A stretch of DNA of 64,000 nt from Narcine bancroftii (taxonomy: Eukaryota): NCBI RefSeq assembly GCF_036971445.1, contig NC_091474.1, positions 195,796,001 to 195,860,000 of the forward strand, written 5' to 3'. Under the pieces are notes generated by a model. It had not been told where the DNA came from. It did no database searches and saw nothing but the letters and a program-made list of their open reading frames with translations. This document shows, piece by piece, positions 3,411 to 60,457 of the stretch; the first letter of the stretch is position 1, and each line of letters opens with the position of its first letter. The translations under genes and the position numbers were made by a program.

Positions 3411-4099
3411 CAAGATGATGGAAACCATAAGATATTGGAGTCGAAGTAAGTAATTTGGCTCATTGAGTCTCCTCTGCCATTCCATCATGAGCTAATCCAT
3501 TCTCTCACTCAGCCCCACATTCCTGCCTTCTCCCCATAAACCTTGATACCCTAACTACTTATGGCCTTCACCTTCTGATTACTGTGAGTTTTCATCAATG
3601 TGTTCGGTGTTTTTTTGTTCTCTTCATCTTAAAACAAAATTAAATGTACATTAATGAATCATAAGGATGAGAGTTTTTCAGTTCTGGGAGAATAACCTCC
3701 TTGACATGATTTCAAGTTAGTGAAGGAGAAGAAAAAGATAGGAAAGTATAACAGACTGAGTCCACATCATCAACATTAATACTGTTTTTACTTATACCTT
3801 TCCTATCAACTAACAATGTTGGATGAGGTGGAACAGTGCTGGTAAAAGCTCTGCTTTAGTCCATGTGATAGCATGCAGTGATTAAATTGAAGATTACCAG
3901 ATTCTTCAAGGCAGTATGAATAGGTGGGAGAACTGAAGTTTTTATTTTGATTACGAGGAGAAAATCTGTCAATTAAATGGAACATAGAAGCTGCCCGTGA
4001 TAATGCATGTGGACATTTGTGGAGAAAGAGAGTTTGCAATTGTAGATGTTATAGAAAGAGATGGACTTTTAACCCATTATTCTTGCCTTATTATGTTCC

Positions 4100-13107: not shown

Positions 13108-13779
13108 ATGCTTAAGTGCAAAAAATGGCAAAAGATCTAAAGGGGAGATGATTGGCACAGGGTAAAGGGAAGGAGATTGGGACTGGGACTTCTCTGCTGG
13201 AATTCTGATGGATTGCATGACCTCTGTTTGTGCTATGCAAAGTAAGAGGGTAAATAAATCTTGTCAACTAATGTATGCCTTATGCCATTGACCAAATGAT
13301 GAGCTAATCTGATGATGAACCTAACCTAAACTACCTTCTTCGTTGCTACCTAACTGCCACATTGTTCATTCTTTACTCCATCTGGAGAAGAATTTTGCCT
13401 ATGCTTTGACTATGAACCTAAGATTAGGAGTAACCATCTGTAAGAGTAGAAATACCAAGCTATATTTTACCAATCTATGGCATTGTATTTTGCACTTCCA
13501 CCCACTATGCTACCTGCCTGCCTCCACTTTTTCTATTTTAATGTTTTTTTGAAACCATTCTTTATCTAATAAGATAAAAATTCCAATGTTTTGCCATGGA
13601 AAAAATTATGCAAAGTGTTGTCAGATGGATTTAATAACAATTTTCAAAGATCATCTGCATGTAAATTAGGGCTTACATTTTAATTAAAAAGTGAGAGAGC
13701 CATTCCGTGCACATCCATAGCTCAGATTCTTAGTGTATAGGTATGAATAAGCATCCAAGCTCTGGCATCTGGCCTGTAC

Positions 13780-13985
13780 CAAGTAGAAGTCAGTTCACTA
13801 AACTACAATGGCACTGCCTTTATTTGCAGATTTGATAACAAGACTGGGATGGGTGCAAAATGGGTACTAGGTGTCTGGAGGATGCAAGGTTGGAATGGAA
13901 GAAGAGAGTGGAGAAGCTGAAGCAGTGGATTTTTCAATAGAAATGGGAAATTAAGAGGTTAAGAGATGGTAAAGGGCTTGAAGAG
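13780..13985 (-). mobile_element. Penelope-like RT fragment, inverted copy of 14758-14953
   Basis: Minus strand encodes PSLVIKSANKGSAIVV, a decayed IKPADKG motif. Reverse complement aligns with 14758-14953. Confidence 0.7.
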
Positions 13986-14689: not shown

Positions 14690-15607
14690 ACAGTCCTCCA
14701 CAGCCTTCAACCAGGTTGCACACTATCCCTTCACTTCCTGAGTCCTTCTCTAGGACACCCTCTTCAAGCCCTTTACCATCTCTTAACCTCTTAATTTCCA
14801 ATCTCTAATGAAAAATCCACTGCTTCAGCTTCTCCACTCTCTTCTTCCACTCCAATCTTGCGTCCTCCAGGCACCTAGCACTCACTTTGCACCCATCCCA
14901 GTCTTGTTAATAAGGACAGTGCCATTGTAGTCTAGTGGACTAACTTCTACCTGACTTCAAGGAAATACAGAAATAGATTGACAAATTGCAAATTAATCTG
15001 ATGTATTCCTAGTCATAATATTCACAGTATTGATGACCTTGTTGGGTATTCATGACAAGAAGAGTAAATAAAATTCCAATACACTAATAGCAGTGGTGGG
15101 GGAGGGAGTGCAGTACTATCTTTGGCTTGGCTTCGCGGACGAAGATTTATGAAGGGGGTAAAAGTCCACGTCAGCTGCAGGCTCGTTTGTGGCTGACAAG
15201 TCCGATGCGGGACAAGTCCGATGCGGAGAAGGCCACTCCGATATAAAACCTACGACCCAAAGACCTCGCTGCCACGTCCCAGCTCGCTCGGCCACGGCAC
15301 ACGAACCATGGGTGTAAAGGGTGGGGCCAGTACTGCGCGCACTGCACTCCACCTAAAAGCTCCTTTGCGCAGGCCCGAGGACAGGTCCACGTCCTCCCCC
15401 TCCACGTGCAGTACTATAATGACGTGGGAAGTGCAGGAATGGGGATTAACAGGTTGGAGGTTGCCAGAGCTTGGATGCTTCTTCATACCTAACCCTGGAT
15501 CGTGACCCTAGCCATGAACATCAGGCCATCACCTTGATCTCTCCGCATCAGGAGATCTGTCCTCTGCAACCTCCAACCTGTTAATCCCCATTCCTGCACT
15601 TCCCACG
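14690..15607 (+). mobile_element. Penelope-like RT fragment interrupted at 14957-15464
   Basis: 14758-14953 (decayed DKG-AVVV region) continues at ~15470 with LDASSYLTLDRDPSHEHQAI..SGDLSSATSNL. Confidence 0.65.
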
Positions 15608-15775
15608 TCATTATAGTACTGCACTCCCTCCCCCACCACTGCTATTAGTGTATTGGAATTTTATTTACTCTTCTTGTCATGAATACCCAACAAGGTCATC
15701 AATACTGTGAATATTATGACTAGGAATACATCAGATTAATTTGCAATTTGTCAATCTATTTCTGTATTTCCTTGA
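14957..15775. repeat. Perfect 210-bp inverted duplication (left arm 14957-15119 plus 15418-15464; right arm 15566-15775)
   Basis: Base-by-base reading shows exact reverse complementarity once the RTE insert and one TSD copy are removed. Confidence 0.95.
15120..15405 (-). mobile_element. Short bipartite RTE insertion with 12-bp TSD
   Basis: RTE 3' end (CTTTGGCTTGGCTTCGCGGACGAAGATTTATG) as in the other copies. TSD GTGCAGTACTAT at 15108-15119 and 15406-15417. Confidence 0.9.
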
Positions 15776-55605: not shown

Positions 55606-55700
55606 TGTTCAAGTTTGTTTTCATTCAATTGTACAAAAATGCATTGTCCAGTCCTCAGTGCAAGAACATTGCCAACATACATACAGACATAACACATAGA

Positions 55701-55876
55701 TGTCATGATAATGAATATGTATGAGATGTACCGGAAGTCACGTGGTATGAGAGAGAGATAAGAACACAAGCAGGAGAACAAAGGAAACCGGAGAATAAAA
55801 AGACACTAAGAAGTTTACCTGATAAACTTGTGTTTAATGTTTTATTAACTTCACATTTCGGGCCACAAATGTGACA
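55701..55876 (+). repeat. 5' LTR (176 bp)
   Basis: TGTCA...TGACA ends. Differs from the 3' LTR by 2 substitutions and one GA unit. Confidence 0.97.
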
Positions 55877-55877
55877 T

Positions 55878-55891
55878 TGGCGACGAGGATG
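55878..55891 (+). promoter_or_regulatory. Primer-binding site, tRNA-Ser(GCU)
   Basis: TGGCGACGAGGATG is complementary to the vertebrate tRNA-Ser(GCU) 3' end CATCCTCGTCGCCA (tRNA sequence recalled, not searched). Confidence 0.88.
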
Positions 55892-56006
55892 AAAGAAGCT
55901 TGAAGAAAATTAAAGACTAAACAAGATTACAGAGGATTACAGACAACTTCAAGGTGATAAGAATTTTCTCTGTGTCTCAGTACTTTTGGGGCTGGAATAT
56001 TTCCTC

Positions 56007-59000
56007 ATGGCTGGGGCAGACAGTGACTTTCTAACACATAGTGGAATTGCTCATTTTGACCCAATGGGTGATGCAAGCACTGTAAGTGTGAAGTGGAAGG
56101 CATGGCTGGAAGAATTTGAATCCTATGCCGACAGACGTGGCCTATTTCTAGATACCGGTACAGTTGAACAAAAAGCGCAGAGAAGGGCGTTACTTCTTTT
56201 CACTGCTGGACCTGCAGTTCGGGAAACATTTAAAACACTTTTGAATACTGGAAGAAAGGATGAGTACCGGAAAGCGGTAGATGCATTAAATGCACACTAT
56301 GTAGTGACACCGAATGCTACATTTCAACGCCATTTGTTTCGGAGAACGAGACAAGAAGATGGCCAGACAATTGCTCAGTACGTGATGAGACTACGCCAGC
56401 TAGCTGTTGGATGCAATTACATGCCAGCTGATTTGGACAACCAATTATTGGATCAAGTCGTACAGCCACTGTAGATCAGATAAACTCAGAAGACGTCTAC
56501 TGGAAAGAGGGAGTGAGTTGGAACTCACCGATGCTTTAGCCATTGCTGCTGCATTAGAGGCTGTTGAAGGGCAATTTCATACCATGACCCTGAAAGACAA
56601 CTCAAGCCAGCAAATTAAGAGGCTCTCACATCGCCATAACCAGCCATAACCAGCCAAGATATACGTCGACGCAGGACGTGGAGTGTTATCGATGTGGAAA
56701 CCGAGATCACTTTGGAAAAGACCCATATTGCCCGGCCAAAGGCAAAGTTTGCAGAAAGTGTGGAGGTAAGGACCACTTTGCAAAGAAGTGCAAAAGCAAG
56801 TCCAATGCAGACCAGAAGAGGAAGAATACAACTTCCAAACCCTGGGAGAAAGGAAAGTATGCTGGAAAGAAAGATACCATTCGCCAGATAGACAGTGACG
56901 ATGATGATACCCAGGAGGGACAGAGTTGTTACCAATTTACGTTGAATGAAGTACATCATGAGAAGGTCCCAGTGATCATTGGTGGAGTGACAGTGCAGGT
57001 CATTGTAGACTCAGGCAGTGACAGTAATGTGATTGATCGACATTTATGGGAGAAGTTGAAAAGGAAAAAGATCATCTGTACCTCAAAGAAGTGTTCCAAG
57101 AAACTATATCCATACACAGCAACAAAGCCATTGCAGACCATTTACTGCAACTGTTGAAGCTGGAGATAAGTACACTGAAGCAGAGTTTATGGTCATAGAA
57201 GAGAGGGGAGAACCATTGCTGAGTAGAAGCACAGTGCAAGATCTGGCAATACTTCATATTGGAGCTTGTGTCAATTCAATTCAGTCATACGAGGATATGA
57301 AGCAAGGATTCCCCGCAGTCTTCCAAGGAGTAGGAAACCTGAAAGGTCGACAATTGAAGCTAGCGGTAGATGAAACGGTCAAACCCAAGGCACAACCAAT
57401 GCGCCGAACTCCATTTGGACTTCGTGGGAAAGTCGAAGCCAAAATTAAAGAATTGATCGAACAAGACATTATAGAACTGGTGGAACATTCGACACAATGG
57501 GTCAGTCCCGTAGTGATTGTGTCCAAACCAAAGGGTGACATAAGACTATGTGTTGACATGAGAATGGCCAATGAAGCTATAATTAGAGAATGACACCCTA
57601 TACCAACAGTGGAGGAAATACTTCAAGAACTAACTACCAGCAAGATATTTTCAAAAATTGATCTGAAGTGAGGCTATCATCAATTAGAGCTGGATCCAGG
57701 TTCCTGGGATGTGACAACATTTGTGACTCACTGTGGATTGTATCGTTACAAGAGACTATCATTTGGAATTAATGCAGCTTCGGAGATCTACCAGTATGAA
57801 ATCCGTCGAGTGATTCAAGGCATTCCTGGAGTTGCCAACATTTCTGATGACATCATAGTCCATGCACCAACGAAGGAAGAGCATGACAAACGGTTGAGGC
57901 GTGTACTATCTAGACTACAGGAGGCAGGCCTTACCGTGAATGGAAACAAGTGCCAGTTCGGTGTGTCAGAAATGGACTTCATGGGACACAGACTTACACG
58001 GAAAGGACTAAACCCTGCAGAGGCCAAGGTGAAAGCTATTGAAGAGGCACGTGCACCTCAGAACGCAACAGAGGTGAGGAGTTTCCTGGGATTGGTCAAT
58101 TTTTGTGCAAAGTTCATTCCTAATTTTGCTACAGTGGCAGAACCACTAAGGAAACTAACCAGGAAAGGTGTACCTTTTCATTTTGGATCTGAGCAGAAGA
58201 AAGTGTTCACAGCGCTGAAGCAAAGCCTGACAGATGCAAAAACTCTTGGATATTACGATCCGGCGGCATCAACCAAAGTTATAGTGGATGCCAGCCCGGT
58301 TGGTTTAGGAGCCGTGTTGGTCCAGATGCATGATGGAGGACCAAGAATCATTGCCTATGCCAGCAGATCGTTATCAGATGTGGAAAGAAGATACTCTCAG
58401 ACAGAGAAAGAAGCACTCGGACTTGTATGGGCCTGTGAGAGGTTCCATGCATATTTATATGGCATTGAATTTGAACTCATCACAGATCATAAGCCGTTAG
58501 AGGTGATCTATGCACCTAGATCCAAACCATGTGCCAGAATAGAGAGATGGGTACTCAGACTACAACCCTACAAATATAAAGTAATCCACATTGCAGGGAA
58601 AGCAAACATTGCAGATCCACTGTCCAGATTGGTGAAGGATGGATGTCCACAATCCAAGTCAGAATTGGGAACAGAAACAGAGAGCTTTGTACGCTTCGTA
58701 GCTATTCAGGCGACACCGAAAGCTGTGACTACGAAGGAAGTCGAGAGAGAATCCGAACATGATCCAGAACTCATGGAAGTAAGAGAATGCATACAGAGTG
58801 GACAATGGGACAAGTGTACTCACAAGGCTTACATTCCCATTAGAGACGAACTTTGTTGCATCGGACAGTGTGTATTAAGAGGTTGCAGATTGGTGATTCC
58901 GCAAAGATTGAGACCGAAGATCGTATCCTTAGCGCATGAAGGACACCTAGGTATTGTTGGTACCAAGCCAAACCTCAGAACCAAGGTATGGTGGCCAGGT

Positions 59001-60101
59001 TGTGATAAAGACGCAGAGAAATTTATTAAAACTTGTCACGGATGTCAAATCACAAGTAGGAGTAATCCGCCAGAACCGATCCGGAGTACACAACTCCCGA
59101 CAGGACCATGGATCGACGTAGCTGTTGATTTTCTTGGACCTTTACCGACGGGTGAATCAATTATGGTAGTGATAGATTACTACAGCAGATACTCTGAGTA
59201 CGTGGTGTTGAAGTCCACAACCACTGAAAAAACAATACAAGCGTTAGCAGAGATATTCGCAAGATATGGATTACTTGTTACATTATACTCTGACAATGGT
59301 CCACAATTCATTTCAGAGACATCTACGGAATACATGAGGACAACAGGTATCCACCATCATAAAGTAACTCGGAAATGGCCGCAAGCCAACGGAGAAGTAG
59401 AGAGACAAAATCAATCCATTGAAAAACGATTGAGGATTGCACACGCAGAAGGACAAAATTGGTGAGAAGCATTGCTATCTTATGTGGCTGTCTATCGAGC
59501 AACGCCTCATGCAACCACTGGAAAAAGTCCTGCAGAAGCATTTTTTGGGAGAAAAATCCGCACAAAAATGCCAGAAATAAAGGAAATCCGAGACGACCAG
59601 GAGATGAGGGACCATGATGCTGAAAAGAAAGGTGCAGCAAAGCTGTACACAGATTCGAAACGTGGAGCCAAGTACTCAGACATCATGCCAGGAGATAATG
59701 TTCTAGTGAGGCATGAAGGTGGTGGTAAGCTAGATACACCTTATTACCATCAACCCTATACTGTCGTATCCAGAAGTGGCAGTATGGTGACAGTCAAGTC
59801 TCCGACTGGAGTCCTGTATAAGAGAAATGTATCAGATGTAAAAAGGTACCAGTCCAGAGATACATCGAGCGAAGAGGTTGAAAGGCCAATACGAGATGCT
59901 GAAATTGAGAGACCTGATGATGTTCCAGAGGCAGTTACCAGCACTCCTGATGAAGTGACTAGAGCACCAGAAACACCCGAAGCCATGGCGAGCAGTATTG
60001 CCGACGCCGAGAGTGAACAACCGAGAAGCGACGACAATATCGCAGGCAGGCCGAAACGAAACCGGAAAGTGCCCAAACGATACGAAGACTTTGTGCCATA
60101 G
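56007..60101 (+). pseudogene. Disrupted gag-pol polyprotein
   Basis: Gag WKAWLEEFESY; knuckles CYRCGNRDH..C and CRKCGGKDHFAKKC; protease IVDSGSD; RT RLCVDMR..NISDDIIV; RNase H VDASPVG..YSQTEKEAL; IN HEGH..CHGC, VDFLGP, SDNGPQF, NGEVER. Frameshifts near 56460, 56650-56680 and 57140. In-frame TGA at 57591, 57669 and 59463. Confidence 0.95.
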
Positions 60102-60269
60102 TTTTAATAAGAACTTTGGGACAGTATTTTAATCTTATATCATAAAGTGCATGTATGAGTGCTGTAGGAAGTAAATTTTATGTAGTTGAGTTATAGTATT
60201 ACCATTAGTTACGATGTTTGTATGTTTCCGAGGGATATTGGTAAGTGAAGGTAAAGTTTATTTCTGATT

Positions 60270-60279
60270 AAAGGAGGGA
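60270..60279 (+). promoter_or_regulatory. Polypurine tract
   Basis: AAAGGAGGGA directly before the 3' LTR. Confidence 0.9.
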
Positions 60280-60457
60280 TGTCATCATAATGAATATGTA
60301 TGAGATGTACCGGAAGTCACGTGGTATGAGAGAGAGAGATAAGAACACAAGCAGGAGAACAAAGGAAACCGGAGAATAAAAAGACACTAAGAAGTTTACC
60401 TGATAAACTTGTGTTTAATGTTTTATTAACTTCACATTTCGGACCACAAATGTGACA
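60280..60457 (+). repeat. 3' LTR (178 bp)
   Basis: Direct repeat of 55701-55876. Confidence 0.97.

What the first reader, a model, noticed from the sequence alone, without database searches (positions are those of the whole stretch)
14957..15775. Perfect 210-bp fold-back duplication inserted ~100 bp upstream of its template
Seen: 15566-15775 (a Penelope fragment end plus unique flank) is copied with no mismatch, inverted, into the middle of the Penelope fragment, whose sequence resumes at ~15465. Both junctions show near-microhomology (ACTTCAAG vs ACTCAAG; TTGCCAGAG vs TTGCAGAG). Only the left arm carries an RTE insert with a TSD, which argues against a simple assembly fold-back. Inference: a very recent replication template switch or repair event, possibly coupled to the RTE insertion. 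It could extrude a cruciform or form dsRNA if transcribed.
Basis: partly seen in the sequence, partly recalled or inferred. Interest (0 to 1): 0.7.

Follow-up and report, generated by a model that had tools for sequence, protein, structure and literature searches.

The report
Fold-back repair scar, later retrotransposon hit
A 210-base piece of DNA sits copied backwards 101 bases from its source, in place of 12 lost bases of an old jumping-gene fragment, likely an ordinary DNA-repair scar of a kind that recurs in this genome, and a young jumping gene with its front end flipped likely landed in the copy afterwards.

Summary
The duplication is real: 14957-15119 plus 15418-15464 equals the reverse complement of 15566-15775, with 0 of 210 differences. 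Read contigs show single depth at the junctions and double depth on the arms, and a second sample spans the left junction. The copy replaced 12 bases of a Penelope-like RT fragment. The right junction has microhomology; the left has filler, not microhomology. This is a repair-mediated duplication (Pace 2009; 1000 Genomes 'Inverted Dup'), with the geometry of yeast fold-back repair. Eight more such pairs lie in 1.56 Mb outside the window (3 of 3 tested are two-copy), and an older one overlaps this locus. No link to RTE insertion was found: 0 of 73 other RTE copies sit in such an arm. Nine of 75 copies are; 8 of these 9 have a 12-bp target duplication, against 1 of 66 others at 12 or more. The scan noted both local inverted copies and RTE inversions before on other DNA of this genome. 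Verdict: ordinary scar; the RTE side result is modestly interesting.

The parts
14731..14953 (+). Host Penelope-like RT fragment, left part (acceptor flank)
   Evidence: Other family copies align from 14731; family proteins match RT-bearing proteins of cartilaginous fishes
14954..14956 (+). Filler ACT at the left junction, in place of 12 deleted host bases; reads as donor AC plus one extra T, or as a slip on the near-repeat CTAACTTC (14940-14947) / CTGACTTC (14951-14958)
14957..15119 (-). Inverted copy, outer part (= donor 15613-15775)
   Evidence: 100% over 163 nt
15108..15119 (+). RTE target site duplication, copy 1
15120..15214 (-). RTE 3' tail (reference 3501-3597), the non-inverted part
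15195..15226 (+). 16-bp tandem slip at the internal inversion junction, ending in a 2-nt overlap with the leader
   Evidence: (D13)
15225..15405 (+). RTE 5' leader (reference 135-317), inverted against the tail; 2-nt overlap with the TSD
15406..15417 (+). RTE target site duplication, copy 2
15418..15464 (-). Inverted copy, inner part (= donor 15566-15612); last 3 nt are shared with the host
15462..15565 (+). Host Penelope-like fragment resumes; 101-nt spacer 15465-15565 between the arms
15566..15775 (+). Donor: end of the host fragment plus unique flank, with an empty RTE target at 15613-15624
13738..13985 (-). Older local inverted copy of the host segment 14760-15491 as it was before the younger event; 207 matches, 17 mismatches; keeps the 12 deleted bases

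Best explanation
A 210-base stretch is copied backwards 101 bases upstream of its source in place of 12 lost bases, likely because a broken or stalled DNA end folded back on its own strand, and a 5'-inverted RTE copy likely inserted into the new copy in a separate, later event. Step 1 (inferred): a break opened in the Penelope-like fragment; the lower strand of the right-hand end, ending CTCTGGCA, paired with its own strand at CTCTGCA (15562-15568; 7 of 8 with one bulge), copied about 210 nt, let go and was end-joined to the left end with loss of 12 nt and 1-3 nt of filler. Step 2 (inferred): an active RTE-type LINE cut the left copy with a 12-nt stagger and primed from both cut ends (twin priming), giving a sense tail and an inverted leader inside one TSD. 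The template was likely a short leader-plus-tail RNA, or the enzyme made the same 3.15-kb jump that such short copies record. No function is implied; it is likely a neutral scar.
For: Exact arms and junctions. The older local copy and the family copies that align across the site keep the 12 nt (10 of 11 in L043-L053, the other alignment stops short). The priming site ranks second of the CA-ending sites within 1 kb and is much nearer than the first, which is about 640 nt away. Microhomology + deletion + filler is the commonest class of proximal duplication in Pace 2009 (10 of 39), and the geometry matches yeast local fold-back inversions. The class recurs: 8 spaced inverted pairs without a full-length distant copy in 1.56 Mb outside the window, 5.1 per Mb (95% 2.2-10.1); 3 of 3 tested have two hits genome-wide. 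Independence: 0 of 73 unselected RTE copies lie inside such an arm; a chance hit is 0.6-1.9% per 420 bp, which gives tens to hundreds of such cases genome-wide by extrapolation. The TSD is a normal one for inverted copies (8 of 9 have 12 bp). Three other young copies join leader 318-327 straight to tail 3470-3484; on such an RNA the gap is about 40 nt, within the -24 to +183 of the other seven mapped inverted copies.
Against: No duplication-only allele was seen: junction depth in S1 suggests both haplotypes carry the RTE, and X5 does not cover it. The RTE copy has three minority bases; each occurs in other copies but no sampled copy has them together. If 2-3 arose after insertion, 0 of 210 arm differences has probability 5% to 1%, so they must come from the source, from RT error, or the arms were homogenised. 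The per-event chance of an independent hit is low for so young a duplication. RTE-coupled inverted capture does occur in this genome: 1 of 73 copies has a 179-nt inverted copy from 4 kb away at its 5' joint. A switch to the sister strand at a fork gives the same product and cannot be told apart. The pre-event state comes from paralogues, not from an orthologous empty site. Five of the 8 surveyed pairs were not tested genome-wide.
Confidence: 0.78

Rival explanations
1. The RTE came first, at the native site on a homologue or sister chromatid; the broken end of an empty chromatid copied that RTE-bearing strand, so copy and RTE arrived together.
For: Explains an RTE in only one arm without a second hit, and an RTE that may look older (three minority bases) than the arms.
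Against: Needs an inverted invasion of another molecule on a 7-nt match, when the same match lies 101 nt away on the strand itself. No RTE-at-native-site allele was seen, though short contigs could not show it.
Confidence: 0.08
2. One coupled event: the RTE endonuclease or its integration intermediate made the break and the fold-back.
For: L1 causes fold-backs and templated insertions in human cells (PMC11702581, passages). One sampled RTE has an inverted local copy at its 5' joint.
Against: In coupled cases the copied DNA abuts the retro-copy; here the TSD and RTE lie inside the copy and both junctions are 46-162 nt away. Insertion into the hairpin stem would put the RTE in both arms (inference). 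0 of 73 other copies show this layout.
Confidence: 0.07
3. The inverted arms are a Penelope integration structure (inverted pseudo-LTR; recalled).
For: The host is Penelope-like and an inverted host segment lies at 13738-13985.
Against: The arms are 100% alike and mostly unique flank, while family copies are only 71-82% alike to the host, apart from one 41-nt match at 90%. The older pair is 92% alike with both ends inside the RT region, so both post-date the element.
Confidence: 0.03
4. Assembly artefact.
For: Perfect identity; S1 may be the assembly's own sample; three of the S1 junction contigs reach only 26-30 letters past the joint.
Against: Double depth on the arms, single depth at all junctions; an independent sample bridges the left junction with 116 and 37 letters.
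Confidence: 0.02

Closest known systems
Repair-mediated duplications (Pace, Sen, Batzer, Feschotte 2009, PMC2671141; passages and section 12 read, no supplements)
   Same: Donor within 5 kb, length near their median of 147 bp, interrupts a TE, microhomology + deletion (1-15 nt) + filler, no poly-A, empty site inferred from the TE family.
   Different: They report 0.08-0.65 per Mb of TE DNA by a stricter screen; my looser screen gives about 5 inverted pairs per Mb of genome, not directly comparable. No cartilaginous fish in their set. A later LINE insertion lies in the copy.
'Inverted Dup' class of the 1000 Genomes SV map (Sudmant 2015, PMC4617611; passages read)
   Same: Copy under 1 kb inserted inverted within 5 kb of its source; stated to be not typically tied to retrotransposition.
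   Different: Human polymorphisms; here allele frequency is unknown.
Local fold-back inversions at double-strand breaks in yeast (PMC11724301; passages read)
   Same: One end folds back on an imperfect inverted microhomology, is extended, unwinds and is end-joined to the other end with little or no homology.
   Different: Yeast: 41-nt loop, 10-nt match, mostly under 14 bp and up to about 150 bp; here 101-nt spacer, 7-of-8 match, 210 bp. Enzymes untested here.
Short-range template switches, four-point model (Walker 2021, PMC7954356; passages read)
   Same: Single inverted repeat; donor lies on the already-made strand, so an intra-strand switch is possible.
   Different: Their copies have median 12 and maximum 128 nt.
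5'-inverted (twin-primed) L1 insertions (PMC2912911, PMC4245944, PMC11702581, passages read; Ostertag and Kazazian 2001 seen only as cited)
   Same: Inverted front half inside one TSD, microhomology at the 5' joint, untrimmed TSD in inverted copies and shorter ones in truncated copies.
   Different: The element is not L1 (as distant from L1 as from R2). TSD is exactly 12 bp rather than 12-18. Those papers describe inversion as almost confined to L1 in human cells. This copy joins positions 3.18 kb apart on the full-length element.

Membership tests
Repair-mediated duplication (Pace 2009) | Donor within 5 kb, two copies only | tested here: met
   101-nt spacer; 2 hits genome-wide
Repair-mediated duplication (Pace 2009) | Interrupts a TE whose two parts are collinear | tested here: met
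   Host continues across the site in the older local copy and 10 of 11 family copies
Repair-mediated duplication (Pace 2009) | Microhomology, deletion or filler at the joints; no poly-A or TSD round the copy | tested here: met
   3-nt exact (7 of 8 imperfect) overlap, 12-nt deletion, ACT filler
Repair-mediated duplication (Pace 2009) | Empty orthologous site in a relative | tested here: inconclusive
   Run X7 (other organism, about 94-97% alike nearby) does not cover the site
Fold-back repair at a break (yeast model) | Dependence on Pol delta and end joining; origin at a break rather than a fork | not testable with these tools
   Only the product is visible
Twin-primed 5' inversion | Opposed halves inside one TSD, inverted half starting at its 3'-most position next to the TSD | tested here: met
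Twin-primed 5' inversion | Microhomology at the 5' joint | tested here: met
   2 nt here; 1-3 nt in 6 of the 8 mapped inverted copies, 0 in one, unresolved in one
Twin-primed 5' inversion | Second priming site close to the end of the first cDNA | tested here: inconclusive
   Gap 3183 nt on the full element, about 40 nt on the short leader-tail form; the template is inferred
RTE clade LINE | Single ORF with AP endonuclease and RT, about 3.5 kb | tested here: met
   1150- and 1241-codon open frames with Exo_endo_phos + RVT_1 in 2 of 4 full copies
RTE clade LINE | TSD peak 10-12 bp starting with A, microsatellite-like tail (PMC6007223, passages) | tested here: met
   Maximum 12 (one 13 in A/G-rich DNA); 29 of 29 TSDs of 7 bp or more in inverted and truncated copies start with A, partly favoured by my tail rule
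RTE clade LINE | RT groups with named RTE elements in a tree | tested here: inconclusive
   No listed hit among the best 120 is named RTE; not L1 or R2; no tree built; the clade name is recalled
Penelope-like element (host) | Penelope-type RT followed by GIY-YIG endonuclease | tested here: inconclusive
   Family frames match proteins with PF28514, PF00078, PF26215 and RVT_1; a GIY-YIG-like stretch is seen by eye but had no Pfam hit; the motifs and the name are recalled

The most novel reading that the evidence does not exclude
A non-L1 LINE in a cartilaginous fish twin-primes in about one insertion in nine and then always leaves exactly 12 duplicated bases, which exposes a fixed 12-nt second-strand cut made before first-strand synthesis ends, with shorter TSDs being host trimming; this insert is a twin-primed copy of a short leader-plus-tail RNA; and it landed in one of some 7,000-34,000 fold-back scars, a density perhaps ten times that reported for other vertebrates.
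Probability: 0.45. Interest if true: 0.5.

Novelty: new member of a known kind. Interest (0 to 1): 0.3.

Why it matters
The duplication itself matters little: it is one more repair-mediated duplication, with no host exon found nearby. Two side results could matter if they hold genome-wide. First, 5' inversion is described as nearly exclusive to L1, and an RTE-type family with many young copies and a sharp 12-bp TSD in inverted copies would make second-strand cleavage, a poorly understood step of LINE integration, measurable outside L1. Second, if local inverted copies are really about 5 per Mb, this genome is a rich record of germline end-joining. Both themes were noted earlier by this scan on other DNA; the exact-12 contrast and the sampled rates are measured here.

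Tried and rejected
Empty or duplication-only alleles: none shown; the joint table was cut and filled by RTE contigs, so this is no proof. In X4 the arm is one 210-nt contig without an RTE branch, but X4 is the same sample as X1, which shows the branch at depth 12.2, so I read it as graph pruning. Expression: no RNA holder listed and X6 laid nothing; no evidence either way. X7 covers flanks only. Host gene: 51 non-repeat open frames of 75 aa or more gave only LTR-retrotransposon domains; short exons would be missed. Hairpin: the strand folds at -267.7 kcal/mol without and -302.8 with the RTE, as any long inverted repeat would; that a 101-nt spacer disfavours a cruciform is recalled, not tested. 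A pairing between RTE leader and tail to explain the 3.15-kb jump: a 9-nt complement exists, but about 1.7 are expected by chance (hand estimate) and those windows rank 13th and 21st of 170 by duplex energy; not supported. Rfam found nothing in the insert, so the ribozyme head named in earlier notes is unconfirmed here. Local clustering of inverted pairs: 3 of 9 in 14% of the sample, p = 0.12. The all-against-all search timed out and was replaced by 8-kb tiles. Rows dropped from the survey of 26 inverted pairs: 13 with full-length distant copies, 1 tail-to-tail RTE pair, 2 spacer-less palindromes, 2 in the window, leaving 8; one of the dropped 13 is the 179-nt capture. One 100-kb block is a satellite array. 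Paper searches: one search returned nothing relevant; and a look into PMC13295347 found no report of twin priming in RTE elements; one search listed none on such duplications in sharks or rays. Ichiyanagi and Okada 2008 and Kojima and Okada 2009 were not read and may bear on this; no supplements were read.

Full report
Observation. The window lies on a 254-Mb contig of a 3.3-Gb genome; the best protein matches of the host repeat family are from rays and sharks. The left arm 14957-15119 plus 15418-15464 equals the reverse complement of 15566-15775 with 0 of 210 differences, the spacer is 101 nt, and a 286-nt insert lies in the left arm between two copies of a 12-bp target. The donor's unique part occurs twice in the genome, both times here.

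Is it real? Contigs of runs X1, X2 and X4 (one sample, possibly the assembly's source) give depth 12-15 on flanks, 13-16 at the left junction, 11.6-13.9 over the right junction and spacer, 12.2 at the RTE/arm junction (X1), and 21.6-26.4 on the arms. Three of these junction contigs reach only 26-30 letters past the joint, as 31-mer contigs do at a repeat. Run X5, from another sample and study, bridges the left junction with 116 and 37 identical letters at depth 3.1. So the structure is real, probably on both haplotypes of the first sample, and not private to it. Identity bounds arm divergence at 1.4%: young, but not shown to be very recent.

The pre-event state. The host is a degenerate RT fragment of a large family (87 matches among 150 scored candidates), with a domain layout I recall as Penelope-like (no Pfam endonuclease hit). 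Ten of 11 family copies, and an older inverted copy at 13738-13985, run through the site with 12 more bases. The event therefore deleted 12 nt. At the right joint 3 nt are shared, and the host's lower strand ends CTCTGGCA against CTCTGCA at the donor start; this site ranks second among CA-ending sites within 1 kb and is far nearer than the first. At the left joint ACT is not host sequence: it is donor AC plus one T, or a slip on a near-repeat 11 nt upstream.

Mechanism of the duplication (inferred). The right-hand end folded back on its own strand, was extended about 210 nt, released and joined to the left end. This is the layout shown in yeast at induced breaks (PMC11724301, passages) and the class named repair-mediated duplication (PMC2671141, passages and section 12), whose commonest signature is microhomology + deletion + filler, and 'Inverted Dup' in human genomes (PMC4617611, passages). 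A template switch at a fork gives the same product (PMC7954356, passages). I was led to the Pace and Sudmant papers by earlier notes and checked the passages myself.

How common? I sampled 1.624 Mb in 15 blocks. Of 26 inverted pairs of 50 nt or more, 85% or more alike and within 4 kb, 8 outside the window have separate arms and no full-length distant copy in the sample: 53-611 nt, 86-99% alike, none with a convincing target duplication round it (best 5 nt). Three were searched genome-wide and each gave two hits; five were not. The rate is 5.1 per Mb (2.2-10.1). The older copy at this locus (92% alike) is another, and the younger break fell inside its donor; local clustering is not significant (p = 0.12).

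The RTE insert. The family is about 3.6 kb, with an intact endonuclease-RT frame in 2 of 4 full copies fetched, as distant from L1 as from R2; the clade name is recalled, as no listed hit bears it. The insert is the 3' tail in one direction and the 5' leader in the other, with a 16-nt slip between: twin-priming geometry. In the sample 9 of 75 copies with a 3' end are inverted (8 of 74 without this one). Eight of the 9 have a TSD of exactly 12 bp; the ninth has an unresolved tandem-array end. Only 1 of 66 others reaches 12 (p = 5e-9); among copies at least 96% alike to the reference and without this one, 4 of 4 against 0 of 34. Ends of the 4 full-length copies were mostly unresolved, and decayed TSDs may be missed. 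L1 shows the same contrast (PMC11702581, PMC4245944, passages), but those papers and PMC2912911 treat inversion as almost confined to L1. Searches found no report for RTE; two key papers were not read. The 3183-nt gap in this copy is unique among the eight mapped, but three other young copies join leader 318-327 to tail 3470-3484 at three different points (a targeted search, 40 of 54 candidates scored), one of them starting at position 133, where this copy's inverted half ends. On such an RNA the gap is about 40 nt.

Coupled or separate? The TSD and the RTE lie inside the copy and both duplication joints are 46-162 nt away. Of 74 RTE copies tested, 8 had a flank with a local copy: this one, three leader arrays, two members of a tail-to-tail pair, one weak direct match, and one true inverted capture at a 5' joint. 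So capture at an RTE joint exists (1 of 73), but none repeats this layout (0 of 73). An independent hit has a chance of 0.6-1.9% per arm pair, enough for tens to hundreds of cases genome-wide by extrapolation. Against this: no duplication-only allele was seen, and three minority bases in the RTE sit uneasily with flawless arms if they are private.

Function. No host exon was found among 51 frames tested. Cruciform and dsRNA remain untested. A neutral scar is the likely reading.

Verdict. Observation confirmed, interpretation partly supported. A new member of a known kind, interest 0.3. The scan had already noted local inverted copies and RTE inversions elsewhere in this genome (unchecked notes); what is added here is read support, sampled rates and the exact-12 TSD contrast.

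Noticed in passing
L064:2500-4261 (about 17 kb before the window): 611-nt local inverted duplication, 96.9% alike, 550-nt spacer, two hits genome-wide.
   Followed up: partly
L105:1004-2083; L103:6575-9476; L058:609-2045; L089:3884-4637; L092:9130 to L093:754; L162:9640-9974; L092:1698-2089: Seven more spaced inverted pairs of 53-404 nt without a full distant copy in the sample; the first two were tested and are two-copy.
   Followed up: partly
L113:3676-4326 (donor L113:7808-7986): Truncated RTE whose 5' joint holds a 179-nt inverted copy (99.4%) of DNA 4 kb away and a 23-nt slipped filler: a likely insertion-coupled capture.
   Followed up: partly
L017:1499-1812, L215, L216: Three young, internally deleted RTE copies join the leader (318-327) to the tail (3470-3484) at three different points; L017 starts at position 133 and has a 12-bp TSD by eye.
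   Followed up: partly
L004-L032: Among 29 loci picked by the leader, several (L005, L008, L013, L020, L022, L032) show opposed RTE halves; far ends and TSDs were not checked and the set is biased.
   Followed up: no
L009, L010, L055, block B12 34386-35888: A 15-nt C-rich unit just before the endonuclease region expands into tandem arrays of up to about 1.1 kb, and a unit of about 169 nt repeats at the 5' end.
   Followed up: no
window 55699-60457: LTR retrotransposon with 97.8% alike LTRs and broken gag, protease, RT, RNase H and integrase frames.
   Followed up: no
window 13600: Read contigs of X1 and X2 lack one base in an A run at full depth: an assembly slip or a sample difference.
   Followed up: no
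L083-L074 block: L074:9230 to L075:335: 485-nt direct repeat, 100% alike, 136-nt spacer, no distant copy in the sample; other unique direct pairs also occur.
   Followed up: no
one search hits: The RT region is 85% alike to a sea-urchin protein and about 80% to lancelet and crustacean proteins, high for such distant hosts; horizontal transfer is possible.
   Followed up: no
L144-L153 (C17, 80.0-80.1 Mb): The whole 100-kb block is a tandem satellite array.
   Followed up: no
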